NCBI GenBank assembly: GCA_964368985.1
Contig: CAYJDW010000002.1
Coordinates: 28,171-92,170 of the forward strand
Origin: an uncultured Myxococcales bacterium
Lineage (GTDB): Bacteria; Myxococcota; UBA727; JABDBI01
Reading direction: 5' to 3'
Length of the DNA: 64,000 nucleotides
A program made the translations under genes and the position numbers. Below are positions 20,841 to 23,408 of this stretch, piece by piece. Each line of letters begins with the position of its first letter. Position 1 is the stretch's first letter. The notes beneath the pieces were generated by a model. The model did not search any database. It saw only the letters and a list, made by a program, of their open reading frames with translations, and was not told the origin of the DNA.

Positions 20841-22460
20841 ATGAGATTTAATATGTTTTATTTTTACCCATTTTTTATGTCGTTAATGTTTTATTGTTTT
20901 ATATTAAATGCGGACGATGAACAGCTAAATTTCACCGTTGCCGCAATGAGTGATGGCGAAATTGCAAACCAACAAATCAAAAAAGATGAAAAATTAAATA
21001 TAAAAGTTGTTTTAACCGAAGCAAGCAGACGCCATATTTTTGAAGGAAAAAAAACCGCAACAGGCTTTTCTGGTGGTCATGATTGGGATTTTCATTACGA
21101 TAATTATATCAAAAATGATCCCGCGGCAGACGTGTATTTTGACGTCAATCTTATGGCCTTCATTGTAAAGTCGTCTAAGGGAGATTCGCTGGTCGATATA
21201 ATAGATAAGTTAAAAAATAAAAAAGAGTTGCCATATTACCACACATTGTTTCCTTCATCATTCTTGAAGACTGAAAAAATTATATTGAATTCATTTAAAA
21301 AAGCTTTTATATCTTTTATGCTCGGAAGAGGAGCTATTAATTTAGATAAAGGAATATTTTATACAGAAAATATGGCAGCAAAGGATACTCCTGTTTTAAA
21401 AGTGGCAGGGGCATTCAGCGTTGCTTACAATGAACACGACAATATTTTTGAATTTAAAATTCATACTTTTTACCCGGATATCGACTGGTATTATCGTATT
21501 GATTTTAAGCATAATAGTGAAAATTTATTTTTCCACAGTCGTTTTATCAAATACATGCCTTGTTTTATTAATGCTCAAATCAAGCCCTTATGGGTACAAC
21601 GCGCTCATCAGAGTGAGAGGCTAGAGAAATCCACTCTCTATACCCCCAAACCCATCGCATTAGAATGGAATGCATCGCTTTGTAAAGACTGGGCCCTGAC
21701 TCTTAGCGAATTGAGTATGCAAGACCGTGTCGATTCTTATCTAAGACAAGAACATCTTAAGAACTTGCAGTTGGGGAGGAACAAAAAATTAAATTTTTTT
21801 GATTTTTTTAATTTCCAAGATTCTCTTACTGACGAAGAATTAGACCAAATAGTAGAGCTCTTAAAATTTTTGATAAAGAATTTTAATTACACGCATAATA
21901 ACTCGCTCGGTATGCTGAAAGATGCGTATAGTAAGCATTTTAGTAAAAATAAAAATAGATTAAAAATAAATACTTTTATTACGGAAAATTCTTCTGTTAA
22001 AATGTCACTCTATCTCAATCTCCATAATCAGGATTTCAACAAACAGTCTAATCCTGATATGAAGTTGATTATGAGTACAGTGAGATTTCATTCTTTATTA
22101 CAAATTTTTAATGACGATGCCCTGAAAACCTTTTTTCCTCAGCAAGACCTAAGAAGCTTAAGAAAAATAGTTACTCGATTTTATCATAACTTTGCGAGTT
22201 TTCTAATACCTGATACAAGCCTTCTTAGTCAGCTTTATAGTGAAAATTTTATTTTAGATACAGTTATGTTTGTAATGGGTAATTCCAACTATCATACAGC
22301 CCTAAGACTAGTGCATATTTCTTACACAGAAAAAGATTTAGCTAAATTTAACTTCGAAAGCGAAGACAAACACACATTGAGTATTGGTTTCAAAGATAAT
22401 AATATTATTGATGTTTTTGGTTCAAACCCAGGTGTAATTAATATTCTAAATAAAAAATAA
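20841..22460 (+). CDS. Orphan 539-aa hypothetical protein encoded in an AT-rich island; hydrophobic N-terminus
   Basis: Long ORF in a region of about 25-30% GC, against about 45% in the flanks. It is rich in Asn, Lys, Phe and Tyr. No motif recognised. Confidence 0.5.
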   Translation: MRFNMFYFYPFFMSLMFYCFILNADDEQLNFTVAAMSDGEIANQQIKKDEKLNIKVVLTEASRRHIFEGKKTATGFSGGHDWDFHYDNYIKNDPAADVYFDVNLMAFIVKSSKGDSLVDIIDKLKNKKELPYYHTLFPSSFLKTEKIILNSFKKAFISFMLGRGAINLDKGIFYTENMAAKDTPVLKVAGAFSVAYNEHDNIFEFKIHTFYPDIDWYYRIDFKHNSENLFFHSRFIKYMPCFINAQIKPLWVQRAHQSERLEKSTLYTPKPIALEWNASLCKDWALTLSELSMQDRVDSYLRQEHLKNLQLGRNKKLNFFDFFNFQDSLTDEELDQIVELLKFLIKNFNYTHNNSLGMLKDAYSKHFSKNKNRLKINTFITENSSVKMSLYLNLHNQDFNKQSNPDMKLIMSTVRFHSLLQIFNDDALKTFFPQQDLRSLRKIVTRFYHNFASFLIPDTSLLSQLYSENFILDTVMFVMGNSNYHTALRLVHISYTEKDLAKFNFESEDKHTLSIGFKDNNIIDVFGSNPGVINILNKK

Positions 22461-22462
22461 AA

Positions 22463-22507
22463 TGAGGCTAATACTTTTTTCAAAGATTGGAAAAAGTATT
22501 AGCCTCA
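22463..22507. terminator. 17-bp-stem hairpin (gaggctaatactttttt / aaaaagtattagcctc) directly after the 20841-22460 gene; terminator-like
   Basis: Inverted repeat seen in the sequence 3 nt after the stop codon. Confidence 0.5.
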
Positions 22508-23099
22508 CACTCCAGCTCGATATTTCTGTTTAGGAATTCTTAGCTAAGATCAGCACTTAAATGAATATTAATATGATTAAATAATTCTTCCCGACTTAGT
22601 TGTAATGCGTTTTGCACACAGATAGGGCAATAGAATTTGGTATTATTTTCGAAAATAAATTTTTCGGGATCTTAAGGTTTAAATATTTCCATCTAGCGCA
22701 AATTTATTATTTGTTCCTTCCAATATTAACGGCATCGGGGGAAACATATTGATTGATTGGAAACTTCTTTTAAAAACCATCGATTATTTTCTTGGTCAAT
22801 TGCACAATTATCACTAATTTTATTTACTCCTATAGAACAATTTACCAATGAATTAGGAGGTTTATCCGCGAAATAGCGGAAATTGATGAACGCTGCAGGC
22901 TTTTATCCTGAATTTCGAGAATGTATTACATAATGAAAAGCTTTTTGTTTTTTGCCTCCAATGTAATAATATCAATGAAATTATCGCTCTAAGATTATCT
23001 GAAATAATATTAAAATTATTAAGTTATATTAATGCTAATAATAGATCTGCGTCTCCTAACTGAAGCAGTCCTAGCTAAGATTGCTTTGTAGGTAGTCCA

Positions 23100-23408
23100 G
23101 TGAAATCTATTTTTCATAAAATAAAGCCTCAATTCTACCTTACGCTGGCATTTTTCGTTCTCGCTCATGCGGCCCATTTTCTGATGCCGCAGCAGGTGGC
23201 GCGTGTGCGTAATGAAGAACAACAGCAGGATATTGCTCTGGCTTGTGCTCTTTTAGAGGGGAATTCATTTAAGGATATTTGGATTTGGCTTCTTCTTCTT
23301 TGGGGCATTAAAATTATTTCCAAGAAAAAATCCAGTCAATCGAGCGGTCTGCCAATTTTTGACAGTTATCGCGGACATGAAACGAAAGGTCGTTCATCAA
23401 AGACCTAA
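23100..23408 (+). CDS. Hypothetical small membrane protein (possible GTG start)
   Basis: 102 aa with an N-terminal TM segment. It overlaps the start of the HlyD-like gene. Coding status is uncertain. Confidence 0.25.
   Translation: MKSIFHKIKPQFYLTLAFFVLAHAAHFLMPQQVARVRNEEQQQDIALACALLEGNSFKDIWIWLLLLWGIKIISKKKSSQSSGLPIFDSYRGHETKGRSSKT

What the first reader, a model, noticed from the sequence alone, without database searches (positions are those of the whole stretch)
22460..23360. No double-glycine cargo peptide found next to the C39 exporter
PCAT loci normally encode small GG-leader precursors immediately up- or downstream. The 900-bp AT-rich stretch upstream contains only trivial ORFs of 20 aa or less. 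The 102-aa 23100-23408 ORF has no LSxxELxxIxGG-type leader. The cargo may be the large PLD protein, a distant peptide, or the 539-aa island protein. In all three cases it is atypical.
Basis: inference. Interest (0 to 1): 0.5.

Follow-up and report, generated by a model that had tools for sequence, protein, structure and literature searches.

The report
Orphan peptidase exporter without nearby cargo

Summary
The negative observation holds, with corrections. Window 22461-23099 is a 639-bp, 31 % GC spacer. Its ORF content (longest 46 aa, not 20 aa or less) is what shuffles give. It begins with a strong hairpin (22463-22507). It belongs to a roughly 4.2-kb lineage-specific insertion (minus-strand ABC gene, 539-aa gene, spacer) that is absent from related genomes.

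Window 23100-23408 is a real gene. It encodes a signal peptide plus a conserved C-terminal membrane anchor with a cytoplasmic SSGLPIF tail, and I found it only next to this exporter.

No GG/GA/GS-leader ORF beyond chance exists in any frame of the 64 kb or in the nine related loci scanned.

The exporter is a distant NHLP-type trio:
- a hairpin-less HlyD-like adaptor;
- a C39-ABC protein whose protease is closest to LahT150, with an intact Q/C/H/D set;
- a second ABC protein with what looks like a dead C39-like domain.

My best reading (0.45) is that the cleaved cargo is a GG-leader peptide encoded elsewhere. The main rival (0.3) is that the co-operonic 1012-aa PLD is the client. The PLD has no Sec signal, a flexible 38-aa N-terminus and a beta-rich N-domain, and it sits next to the exporter in 9 of 12 lineages. 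The 539-aa protein is not a credible cargo.

This is a new variant of a known kind, of moderate interest.

The parts
18794..20641 (-). ABC exporter gene (615-aa ORF; 609 aa as called by gene finders). It forms the left part of a lineage-specific insertion between rimO and the exporter operon.
   Evidence: Pfam ABC_membrane and ABC_tran. Present in the same-species contigs L001-L003. Absent from L005, L009, L011, L013 and L027, where rimO is followed directly by the exporter operon.
20841..22460 (+). 539-aa orphan protein with a Sec-like N-terminus and 33 % GC. It is part of the insertion and is not a credible PCAT cargo.
   Evidence: No Pfam or NCBIfam hit. N-terminal hydrophobic window with Kyte-Doolittle 1.83. 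GC 0.331. Absent from related loci.
22463..22507 (+). Long hairpin starting 3 nt after the 539-aa stop codon. It is probably a transcript-end or stability element; it is not followed by a U-tract on the + strand.
   Evidence: 21-nt arms, 95 % complementary, 3-nt loop (I3). RNA fold -27.9 kcal/mol against -9.3 +/- 2.4 in shuffles, z = -7.9. Not listed by the consensus terminator scan.
22461..23099 (.). AT-rich non-coding spacer that contains the hairpin above.
   Evidence: 639 bp, 30.8 % GC. Longest ORF 46 aa against 48.7 +/- 14 in shuffles. Promoter-like sites are at the chance level, 11 against 12 +/- 4. The 39-aa ORF 22757-22876 ('...FTNELGG|LSAK') scores only 5.5 of 11.5 and would leave a 5-aa core.
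23100..23408 (+). Real gene for a 102-aa small membrane protein. It has a signal-peptide-like N-terminus, a short variable ectodomain, and a conserved C-terminal module F-K-D-x-W-x-W-LLxLW (TM) - KKK - SSxSSGLPIF (cytoplasmic). It overlaps the adaptor gene by 32 nt.
   Evidence: The module is conserved in seven sequences whose N-terminal parts are unrelated (0 to about 700 aa), and an eighth copy lies at the same position in L031. Third-codon-position changes indicate selection at the protein level. Only 5 clusters exist among 5.8 billion. It occurs once per locus and always directly upstream of the adaptor gene. Two hydrophobic segments. No Pfam or NCBIfam match even at E = 10.
23377..24225 (+). 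282-aa HlyD-like periplasmic adaptor that lacks the coiled-coil hairpin.
   Evidence: Best NCBIfam hit is TIGR03794 (NHLP system secretion protein), 107 bits against a cutoff of 156. Only profile positions 253-419 match, plus TIGR01843 positions 5-76, so about 175 central profile positions have no counterpart. Start coordinate as called in L001-L004.
24227..26242 (+). 671-aa C39-peptidase ABC half-transporter with an intact catalytic set and a degenerate Walker B (LLLLDN).
   Evidence: Peptidase_C39 2.4e-25 and ABC_tran. TIGR03796 261.6 bits against a cutoff of 853. Q14, C20, H93 and D109 are invariant in 8 homologues, as are D595, F597 and F598. The C39 domain is closest to LahT150 (6MPZ), E = 2.2e-20.
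26223..28283 (+). 686-aa second ABC half-transporter with a consensus Walker B (MDEIF). Its N-terminal domain of about 130 aa is colinear with a C39 domain but lacks the Cys and His, so it is probably a dead C39-like domain.
   Evidence: TIGR03797 179.9 bits against a cutoff of 709. In hhalign against the C39-ABC family, residues 39-140 pair with C39 residues 24-130 and the His position is not His. phmmer aligns it to HlyB from HlyB residue 62. The isolated domain has no significant PDB sequence hit, so the assignment is probable, not proven.
28320..31358 (+). 1012-aa PLD-superfamily protein: a flexible N-terminus (aa 1-38), a beta-rich N-domain (about aa 40-480) and a two-lobed PLD catalytic domain (about aa 520-1012). 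It has no Sec signal and starts 36 nt after the ABC2 stop codon.

Best explanation
The locus is a vertically inherited 'orphan' exporter operon in an uncultured lineage that NCBI labels Myxococcota. Gene order is: small anchor protein, hairpin-less HlyD-like adaptor, C39-ABC, second ABC with a probably dead C39-like domain, PLD.

The flagged 900 bp holds no cargo gene. It consists of a hairpin after the 539-aa gene, a non-coding AT-rich spacer left by a lineage-specific insertion of about 4.2 kb, and the start of the small anchor-protein gene.

The exporter is a distant relative of the three-gene NHLP/Nif11 peptide export system. Its protease domain is a canonical, catalytically intact double-glycine protease, closest to LahT, which cleaves Nif11- and NHLP-type leaders. 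I therefore infer that the substrate it cleaves is one or more GG/GA/GS-leader peptides or small proteins encoded outside this 64-kb window. Those would be cut in the cytoplasm by the C39 domain and pumped across the inner membrane by an asymmetric ABC heterodimer with one degenerate and one consensus ATP site.

Shown here: absence of a cis cargo, gene identities, conservation and the insertion. Inferred: cargo encoded in trans, heterodimer formation and direction of transport.
For: 1. No GG-leader ORF occurs in six frames of 64 kb above chance, with or without a start codon, and positive controls score 9.5-11.5. None of 64 intergenic ORFs hits a leader family. Nothing credible turned up in nine related loci.
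2. The trio's best NCBIfam hits are TIGR03794, TIGR03796 and TIGR03797.
3. The C39 domain matches LahT150 at E = 2.2e-20 against 2e-7 for PCAT1. Q14, C20, H93 and D109 are invariant across homologues down to 28 % identity, which implies a protease that still works.
4. LahT150 cleaves Nif11 and NHLP leaders after GG, GA or GS, and recognition lies in the last 13 leader residues (PMC6363468).
5. NHLP/Nif11 precursors are documented at locations distant from their export genes, and the export system has a broader species distribution than the known precursors (PMC2887384).
6. PCATs are generally not very selective among GG peptides (PMC7018657).
7. None of the cis candidates has a GG-type site. 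PLD position -2 before G50 is S/N/E/L/R/Q/T/K across the family and the motif forms two strands within the modelled N-terminal domain. The small-protein tail is mostly S-S-G with no hydrophobic residues at -4 or -7.
Against: - The rest of the genome could not be searched, so no GG precursor has actually been seen.
- All three transporter proteins fall far below the NCBIfam equivalog cutoffs, so specificity may have drifted.
- The cassette sits in a housekeeping block (rpsA-rimO ... serS) that is conserved from 46 % down to about 28 % identity, and no RiPP-modifying enzymes are nearby. That is unlike typical mobile, patchy bacteriocin loci and suggests a conserved physiological client.
- The PLD is co-oriented, 36-58 nt downstream and has no Sec signal, which fits a cis client (see rival 1).
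Confidence: 0.45

Rival explanations
1. The 1012-aa PLD is the exporter's client. It would be made without a Sec signal and recognised through its flexible N-terminal extension of about 38 aa and/or by the dead C39-like domain of the second ABC protein, as HlyB recognises HlyA. It would be threaded unfolded across the inner membrane into the periplasm, since the adaptor has no TolC-reaching hairpin. There its beta-rich N-domain would associate with, or insert into, a membrane and the PLD domain would act on phospholipids.
For: - The PLD follows ABC2 on the same strand with a 36-58 nt gap in the window and in L005, L009, L011, L014, L025, L026 and L031. In L027 it is still there although PLD identity has fallen to about 20 % and an extra gene has been inserted.
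- There is no hydrophobic N-terminal segment.
- In the AF2 model aa 1-38 have pLDDT below 50 and precede the fold.
- The extreme N-terminus 'MTKIN' recurs in the close homologues.
- ABC2 carries a probable C39-like domain, the hallmark of T1SS ABC proteins that export large uncleaved substrates (PMC8277102).
- Deep vertical conservation suits a conserved protein client.
Against: - There is no GG/GA/GS site. The conserved 'LKLFG-xxLSG' motif forms two strands within the modelled N-terminal domain, and its -2 position is not restricted to small residues in the wider family.
- PLD homologues occur without the exporter next door in L028 (rpsA-PLD), L029 and L030 (45 % identical, still next to serS). 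The exporter occurs without a PLD in L010.
- The whole block is syntenic, so adjacency could be inherited gene order.
- The PCAT1 cavity was estimated to hold only one cargo of about 66 residues (PMC6959990).
- An intact protease would be left without a job.
Confidence: 0.3
2. The small anchor protein (23100-23408) is the exporter's dedicated partner. It could be an accessory subunit or adaptor whose cytoplasmic SSGLPIF tail docks on the C39 or C39-like domain. Alternatively it could be a novel membrane-anchored substrate that is cut after the conserved Gly, releasing the variable C-terminal 11-26 residues.
For: - It is always directly upstream of, and overlapping, the adaptor gene, which suggests translational coupling.
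- The TM-KKK-SSxSSGLPIF module is among the most conserved segments in the locus (KKKSSQSSGLPIF is identical where the C39-ABC is 39 % identical), while the ectodomain ranges from 0 to about 700 aa.
- The family is confined to these loci: 5 clusters among 5.8 billion.
- The layout 'conserved segment, Gly, variable tail' mimics 'leader, GG, core'. One member has T-G-G-L.
Against: - It is absent from L011/L015 and L027, where rimO abuts the adaptor gene, and from L010. It is therefore not essential to the machine.
- S-S-G is not a GG/GA/GS site, and positions -4, -7 and -12 are polar or basic (score 3.5 or not scoreable).
- No direct evidence of interaction exists.
Confidence: 0.1
3. A conventional GG-leader gene is present in cis but was missed, for example a very short peptide, an unusual start codon or a sequencing error.
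For: The 39-aa ORF 22757-22876 ends '...FTNELGG|LSAK'. In L011 a 24-aa ORF reads 'LSPEDVMKFNGG|LRVIFAQARKY' and scores 10.5.
Against: - The window ORF scores 5.5 of 11.5, would leave a 5-aa core, and lies in a species-specific spacer.
- The L011 ORF is 8 kb from the exporter, has only a 13-aa leader, and was not found in the other loci scanned or in the window.
- The frame-wide scan without a start requirement found no site scoring 9 or more, and counts match shuffles.
Confidence: 0.03

Closest known systems
NHLP/Nif11 ('NHLM') bacteriocin export system: TIGR03794 HlyD-like, TIGR03796 C39-ABC and TIGR03797 ABC (Haft et al. 2010, PMC2887384). Legionella LB2SS/LB3SS are further examples (PMC6959600).
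   Same: - The same three-gene architecture, with these three models as the best NCBIfam hit for each protein.
- Only one of the two ABC proteins carries the active peptidase.
- Cargo need not be adjacent.
   Different: - Scores are 3-4 times below the equivalog cutoffs.
- The adaptor lacks about 175 central residues of the profile, which I read as the coiled-coil hairpin.
- The C39-ABC has a D-N Walker B.
- There are no NHLP or Nif11 precursors and no modification enzymes in 64 kb.
- The cassette sits in a conserved housekeeping block with a PLD gene downstream and, in most lineages, a small anchor-protein gene upstream.
LahT / PCAT1 / ComA-type peptidase-containing ABC transporters (PCAT/AMS)
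   Same: - A C39 domain with the Gln/Cys/His/Asp catalytic set. It is closest to LahT150 (E = 2.2e-20) and also matches PCAT1 and ComA.
- Cytoplasmic N-terminal protease, then TMD, then NBD.
   Different: - The characterised PCATs (for example PCAT1, PMC6959990) carry two identical peptidase domains. Here the two different adjacent genes suggest a heterodimer with one active and one probably dead domain.
- Pfam ABC_membrane is not detected in either protein.
- No GG substrate is encoded in cis.
HlyB-type T1SS with a C39-like domain (CLD)
   Same: - The second ABC protein has an N-terminal domain colinear with C39 but without the catalytic Cys and His.
- A large, Sec-signal-less protein is encoded in the operon.
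   Different: - There is no RTX or C-terminal secretion-signal substrate.
- The adaptor has no hairpin to reach TolC.
- One subunit keeps an active protease.
- The CLD assignment rests on profile alignment only (one search gave no hit for the isolated domain).
Tripartite C-terminal sorting signals (PEP-CTERM, MYXO-CTERM, GlyGly-CTERM, LPXTG)
   Same: The small protein's C-terminus has the same layout (short motif, TM helix, basic cluster) behind unrelated N-terminal domains.
   Different: - It is single-copy in the 64-kb window and rare overall, rather than a multi-copy paralogous tag.
- It carries an extra conserved cytoplasmic SSGLPIF segment.
- No sortase, exosortase or rhombosortase gene is among the called genes of the loci examined.
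- It has no NCBIfam match.

Membership tests
PCAT / AMS (peptidase-containing ABC transporter) | N-terminal C39 peptidase domain with catalytic Cys and His (plus oxyanion Gln and Asp) | tested here: met
   PF03412 at 2.4e-25. Q14, C20, H93 and D109 are invariant in 8 homologues. Aligns to LahT150 at 2.2e-20 with 'ECGA' and 'HFVV' matched.
PCAT / AMS (peptidase-containing ABC transporter) | Type IV ABC exporter core (six-helix TMD plus NBD) | tested here: inconclusive
   The NBD is clear (ABC_tran 7.7e-16; PDB hits to ABCB1 and PCAT1). The region of about 300 aa between the C39 domain and the NBD is hydrophobic, but PF00664 is not detected. Homologues in L013/L014 are only 508 aa long.
PCAT / AMS (peptidase-containing ABC transporter) | Cognate substrate with an N-terminal leader ending in GG/GA/GS and hydrophobic residues at -4, -7, -12 and -15 | tested here: not met
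   None found in 64 kb or in the related loci. The rest of the genome cannot be tested with these tools.
NHLP/NHLM bacteriocin export system (TIGR03794/03796/03797) | Three adjacent genes: HlyD-like, C39-ABC and a second ABC without an active peptidase | tested here: met
   Gene order 23377-28283 with overlapping or abutting genes. Each protein's top NCBIfam hit is the corresponding model.
NHLP/NHLM bacteriocin export system (TIGR03794/03796/03797) | Scores above the curated equivalog cutoffs | tested here: not met
   107.1 against 156.2, 261.6 against 853.3, and 179.9 against 709.4 bits.
NHLP/NHLM bacteriocin export system (TIGR03794/03796/03797) | NHLP (TIGR03793) or Nif11-type (TIGR03798) precursors in the same genome | not testable with these tools
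   None in the window. Only 64 kb of the genome is available.
CLD-type T1SS (HlyB-like) | N-terminal C39-like domain without the catalytic Cys | tested here: inconclusive
   hhalign pairs ABC2 residues 39-140 with C39 residues 24-130, and the Cys region and the His are missing. The HlyB alignment starts at HlyB residue 62. The isolated domain gives no significant PDB hit.
CLD-type T1SS (HlyB-like) | Adaptor with a long alpha-helical hairpin that docks a TolC-like channel | tested here: not met
   The 282-aa adaptor matches only the two ends of the HlyD-family profiles. The central 175 or so profile positions are absent.
PLD superfamily | Two HKD-type PLD lobes | tested here: met
C-terminal protein-sorting signals (PEP-CTERM and similar) | A tag shared by several paralogues per genome, plus a dedicated sorting enzyme | tested here: not met
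   One copy in 64 kb and one per related locus. Five clusters in the whole database. No NCBIfam match at E = 10.

The most novel reading that the evidence does not exclude
The operon is a dedicated, Sec-independent export device for a membrane-active phospholipase. An NHLP-type ABC heterodimer (one live C39, one dead C39-like domain) with a hairpin-less adaptor would move the signal-less 1012-aa PLD into the periplasm. There the PLD's N-domain, whose nearest structural matches outside the PLD folds are outer-membrane beta-barrels, would engage a membrane. The rare small anchor protein, with its conserved cytoplasmic SSGLPIF tail, would be a new accessory subunit or pseudo-substrate that docks on the peptidase. 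This would be a PCAT-family system that has been turned from peptide export to large-enzyme export and kept as a core function of an uncultured Myxococcota-labelled clade.
Probability: 0.3. Interest if true: 0.7.

Novelty: new variant of a known kind. Interest (0 to 1): 0.4.

Why it matters
PCATs are usually read as markers of bacteriocin or signalling-peptide production, and genome miners look next door for the peptide. This case shows a deep, vertically inherited branch of the NHLP-type exporter that never has a cis GG peptide in any lineage I examined. Its constant companions are instead a signal-less PLD and a previously undescribed small anchor protein.

If the cargo is encoded in trans, the locus is an ordinary orphan exporter and the lesson is only methodological. 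If the PLD or the anchor protein is the client, it would extend what C39-bearing ABC exporters are known to handle. It would also give a route by which a predatory or soil lineage places a phospholipase outside the cytoplasm.

Tried and rejected
- **PLD N-terminal motif as a leader.** I considered 'S-L-K-L-F-G-x-x-L-[SAC]-G-[LI]' (aa 39-51; G45 and G50 invariant in 6-7 close homologues) as an atypical small-Gly cleavage site. I rejected it. In 22 wider homologues the -2 position is S/N/E/L/R/Q/T/K and the Gly is sometimes lost. AF2 places the motif in strands 41-43 and 46-49 of the modelled N-terminal domain.
- **39-aa spacer ORF '...ELGG|LSAK' (22757-22876).** Score 5.5 of 11.5, a 5-aa core, and a location in a species-specific spacer. 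Rejected.
- **L011 24-aa ORF 'LSPEDVMKFNGG|...'.** Score 10.5, but only a 13-aa leader, 8 kb from the exporter and not seen in the other loci scanned or in the window. I treat it as chance.
- **The 539-aa protein as cargo.** Rejected because of its Sec-like N-terminus and lineage-specific presence.
- **The small protein as a known C-terminal sorting tag.** No NCBIfam hit at E = 10.
- **Searches that failed or gave little.**
  - The search for homologous proteins with the PLD N-domain returned nothing, apparently because of word-candidate saturation. I replaced it with the exhaustive representative search.
  - The look-up of encoding contigs with the raw window translation failed but worked with P0001.
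  - BLASTP of the ABC2 N-domain against the C39 domain found nothing, as did phmmer against the PDB.
  - The metagenome scan with an 8-sequence N-domain alignment had no usable conserved stretch. The 6-sequence version returned only 3 loci.
  - Foldseek against the PDB saw only the PLD catalytic domain.
  - A literature search for a PLD secreted by a C39 T1SS found nothing relevant.
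Full report
**What is at 22460-23360**

The interval is not one feature.
- A near-perfect hairpin begins 3 nt after the stop codon of the 539-aa ORF (20841-22460). It spans 22463-22507, with 21-nt arms and a 3-nt loop. As RNA it folds at -27.9 kcal/mol against -9.3 +/- 2.4 for shuffles, z = -7.9.
- The stretch 22461-23099 is 639 bp at 30.8 % GC. The window averages about 44 %.
- With ATG, GTG and TTG starts this stretch holds ORFs of 46, 40, 39, 37 and 33 aa, so 'only ORFs of 20 aa or less' is inaccurate. The longest ORF is what the composition predicts: 48.7 +/- 14.0 aa in 1000 shuffles, and 53 % of shuffles do at least as well.
- Promoter-like matches are at background, 11 against 12 +/- 4.
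- From 23100 onward the sequence is coding (see the small-gene section below).

**The spacer belongs to a lineage-specific insertion**

The 100 %-identical C39-ABC protein (P0001) lies on metagenome contigs of up to 1.25 Mb with the same gene order as the window. Homologues are rare. Only about nine proteins resemble it along their length, at 46 to 28 % identity.

Their contigs share the block rpsA - rimO - [small ORF] - HlyD-like - C39-ABC - ABC - PLD - (144-aa gene) - serS. In all of them rimO is followed directly by the exporter operon. The minus-strand ABC gene (18794-20641), the 539-aa gene (33 % GC) and the AT-rich spacer are found only in the window's own species. They therefore form an insertion of about 4.2 kb.

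The two species representatives found in the GTDB-based collection are MAGs that NCBI labels 'Myxococcota bacterium'.

**Is there a GG-leader gene?**

I enumerated all 3262 start-stop combinations of 20 aa or more. For each I scored every G-[GAS] for the classical features: hydrophobic residues at -4, -7, -12 and -15, an acidic residue at -8, and Ser/Thr at -11. These follow the definitions in PMC7018657 and PMC6959990.

- Nothing reached 9 of 11.5. The sites at 7-8.5 lie inside or antisense to larger genes (read against the gene map).
- Counts equal block-shuffled sequence. At threshold 7 there are 14 against 11.1 +/- 2.6, at threshold 8 there are 4 against 2.4 +/- 1.5, and at threshold 9 there are 0 against 0.5.
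- Dropping the start-codon requirement changes nothing.
- As a positive control, eight classical leaders recalled from memory score 7.5-11.5, and six of them score 9.5 or more.
- Sixty-four ORFs of 25-109 aa lying in intergenic gaps were scanned against NCBIfam and Pfam. Only ClpS and pterin-4a-carbinolamine dehydratase were recognised, and no bacteriocin, NHLP or Nif11 leader family.
- The same scan of nine related loci gave nothing credible. One 24-aa ORF in L011 with a good motif has only a 13-aa leader and was not seen in the other loci or in the window.

**The exporter**

- NCBIfam's best hit for each of the three proteins is the NHLP ('NHLM') bacteriocin export trio: TIGR03794, TIGR03796 and TIGR03797. 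All three are far below the equivalog cutoffs: 107 against 156, 262 against 853, and 180 against 709 bits.
- The adaptor (23377-24225, 282 aa) matches only the two ends of the HlyD-family profiles. About 175 central profile positions have no counterpart, which I read as loss of the coiled-coil hairpin.
- The C39 domain is canonical. It matches PF03412 at 2.4e-25. Q14, C20, H93 and D109 are invariant in eight homologues.
- Its closest solved relative is LahT150 (6MPZ), at E = 2.2e-20 against about 2e-7 for PCAT1. LahT150 removes Nif11- and NHLP-type leaders after GG, GA or GS and reads the last 13 leader residues (PMC6363468).
- The C39-ABC has a degenerate Walker B (LLLLDNFF; D595, F597 and F598 invariant). 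The second ABC has the consensus MDEIF. This suggests an asymmetric heterodimer.
- The second ABC protein has an N-terminal domain of about 130 aa that is conserved within the family. In a profile-profile alignment it is colinear with C39 residues 24-130 but has no counterpart of the Cys region or the His. phmmer aligns the protein to HlyB from HlyB residue 62. Taken alone the domain has no significant PDB match, so 'dead C39-like domain' is probable, not proven.

**The dismissed 102-aa ORF is a real and unusual gene**

- Its C-terminal 45 or so residues are conserved in seven sequences, while the N-terminal parts are unrelated. The pattern is F-K-D-x-W-x-W-L-L-x-L-W-x-I-K-x-I - KKK - S-S-x-S-S-G-L-P-I-F.
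- The N-terminal parts range from almost nothing (54-aa proteins in L005 and L026), through signal peptide plus about 30 aa (window, P0091, P0093, P0094), to a Cys-rich, Asp-rich ectodomain of about 700 aa in L013. An eighth copy of the module lies at the same position in L031.
- DNA differences fall on third codon positions.
- A profile search of 5.8 billion clusters found only five members.
- The module occurs once per locus, always immediately upstream of the adaptor gene and overlapping it.
- Hydropathy shows an N-terminal and a C-terminal hydrophobic segment. Together with the KKK cluster after the second segment, this predicts an N-out, C-in topology with the SSGLPIF tail in the cytoplasm. 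That topology is inferred.
- No Pfam or NCBIfam family matches it, even at E = 10.
- The gene is absent from L011/L015, L027 and L010, so it is not indispensable.

**The PLD**

- The 1012-aa protein has two PLD lobes with invariant H-x-K pairs at 736/738 and 929/931. Its first 60 residues contain no hydrophobic segment, with a Kyte-Doolittle maximum of 0.82.
- An exhaustive search found 45 representatives that share its N-domain. Most are 950-1130 aa long, consistent with the same architecture, and homology starts at about residue 38-46.
- An AF2 model built from 23 sequences has mean pLDDT 84.7 and pTM 0.78. Residues 1-38 are below 50. The motif I first suspected of being a leader end ('LKLFG-MQLSG') forms strands 41-43 and 46-49 within the modelled N-terminal domain.
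- In the wider family the residue before the second Gly is S/N/E/L/R/Q/T/K. This is not a GG-type site.

**Linkage between PLD and exporter**

- The PLD follows the second ABC gene, on the same strand and 36-58 nt away, in the window and in L005, L009, L011, L014, L025, L026 and L031. In L027 it is still downstream although PLD identity is only about 20 % and a PF04185 phosphoesterase gene has been inserted between them.
- PLD homologues also occur without the exporter: L028 (rpsA-PLD), L029, and L030 (45 % identical, still next to serS, with unrelated genes upstream).
- The exporter occurs without a PLD in L010.
- That makes 9 of 12 PLD contexts linked. All nine lie in one syntenic block, so inherited gene order cannot be excluded.

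**Mechanism and weighting**

Shown here:
- The flagged DNA holds no cargo gene.
- The exporter is an NHLP-type-like trio with a live, LahT-like GG protease.
- The 539-aa protein is an inserted, Sec-type protein and not a plausible cargo.

The rest is inferred. Because the protease is canonical and conserved, and no cis candidate offers a GG/GA/GS site, I think the cleaved substrate is most likely a GG-leader peptide or small protein encoded elsewhere (0.45). This situation is documented for NHLP/Nif11 systems. Their precursors can be distant from the export genes, and the exporter has a broader species distribution than the known precursors (PMC2887384). PCATs are also generally not very selective among GG peptides (PMC7018657).

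The main rival (0.3) is that the PLD is the client. It has no signal peptide, a flexible N-terminal extension and a beta-rich N-domain. It is operonic with an exporter whose second subunit resembles the uncleaving, CLD-bearing T1SS ABC proteins (PMC8277102) and whose adaptor lacks a TolC-reaching hairpin, which would fit delivery to the periplasm. Against this rival:
- The PLD has no GG site.
- The two genes occur unlinked in four lineages.
- The PCAT1 cavity was sized for one cargo of about 66 residues (PMC6959990).

A third reading (0.1) makes the small anchor protein an accessory subunit or a pseudo-substrate. A missed cis peptide is unlikely (0.03).

**Comparison with known systems and verdict**

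The system works like, and descends from, the NHLP-type PCAT/T1SS family, but it fails that family's curated score thresholds. It also differs in five respects:
- a hairpin-less adaptor;
- a degenerate ATP site;
- a probably dead second peptidase-like domain;
- a fixed chromosomal position among housekeeping genes;
- two conserved non-peptide neighbours.

I rate it a new variant of a known kind. Absence of a cis cargo is not in itself surprising for this family, so I set interest at a moderate 0.4. It would be considerably higher if the PLD or the anchor protein proves to be the client.

Noticed in passing
window 13292-13324, 33193-33225, 33293-33325, 54401-54433, 56015-56047, 56165-56197: A family of GC-rich palindromic, REP-like elements, CCTC[GT]CCCGC(TT/AA)GCGGG[AC]GAGG. 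They often occur as inverted pairs, and most copies lie in intergenic gaps.
   Followed up: no
window 35696-38359: An 887-aa predicted lipoprotein (LGAC lipobox) built from 8-9 tandem repeats of about 90/180 nt. The repeats encode Cys-rich 'CGNGI.DPGE.CDDGN' units, which resemble the Myxococcus-type cysteine-rich repeat (from my own knowledge). A DUF4215 protein also sits next to the PLD in L005-L008.
   Followed up: partly
window 24227-26242 and 26223-28283: The C39-ABC has Walker B 'LLLLDN' with no catalytic Glu, invariant across the family. The second ABC has 'MDE'. This implies one degenerate and one consensus ATP site.
   Followed up: partly
L027 8351-9922 (minus strand): In a distant, GC-rich relative a PF04185 phosphoesterase (phospholipase C / acid phosphatase family) is inserted between the second ABC gene and the PLD gene. 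NfeD and Band-7 genes follow the PLD, so a second lipid-active enzyme lies in the same operon neighbourhood.
   Followed up: no
L010 799-1593: In the one lineage where the exporter lacks a PLD, the gene upstream of the adaptor gene encodes a 264-aa protein with a signal-like segment and extreme Cys runs (CC, CCCC). It has no family match.
   Followed up: no
L013 about 6957-9263: The anchor-module protein of this lineage sits in a 769-codon open frame. It has 'PGICGCG' repeats and thrombospondin-type-3-like Asp-rich repeats, and the contig has an N-run inside it. Gene callers reported only the last 285 aa.
   Followed up: partly
L009 14062-14370 and 14422-17106: The PLD gene of GCA_052034245.1 is split into 102-aa and 894-aa ORFs. 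This could be a frameshift, a pseudogene or an assembly error.
   Followed up: no
L013/L014 and L031: In this sub-lineage both ABC proteins are only about 505-508 aa long. That leaves about 150 aa between the peptidase domain and the NBD, too short for a six-helix exporter TMD. The second ABC protein there also lacks the N-terminal C39-like domain.
   Followed up: no
L030 2659-3720 (minus strand): Where the exporter is missing upstream of a 45 %-identical PLD, a 353-aa ORF that looks like a patatin-type phospholipase (read by eye, not scanned) lies 1.6 kb upstream.
   Followed up: no
window 23100-23408 (P0141): JGI/IMG names the 102-aa anchor protein 'Na+/H+ antiporter NhaC'. No search here supports that name.
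   Followed up: yes
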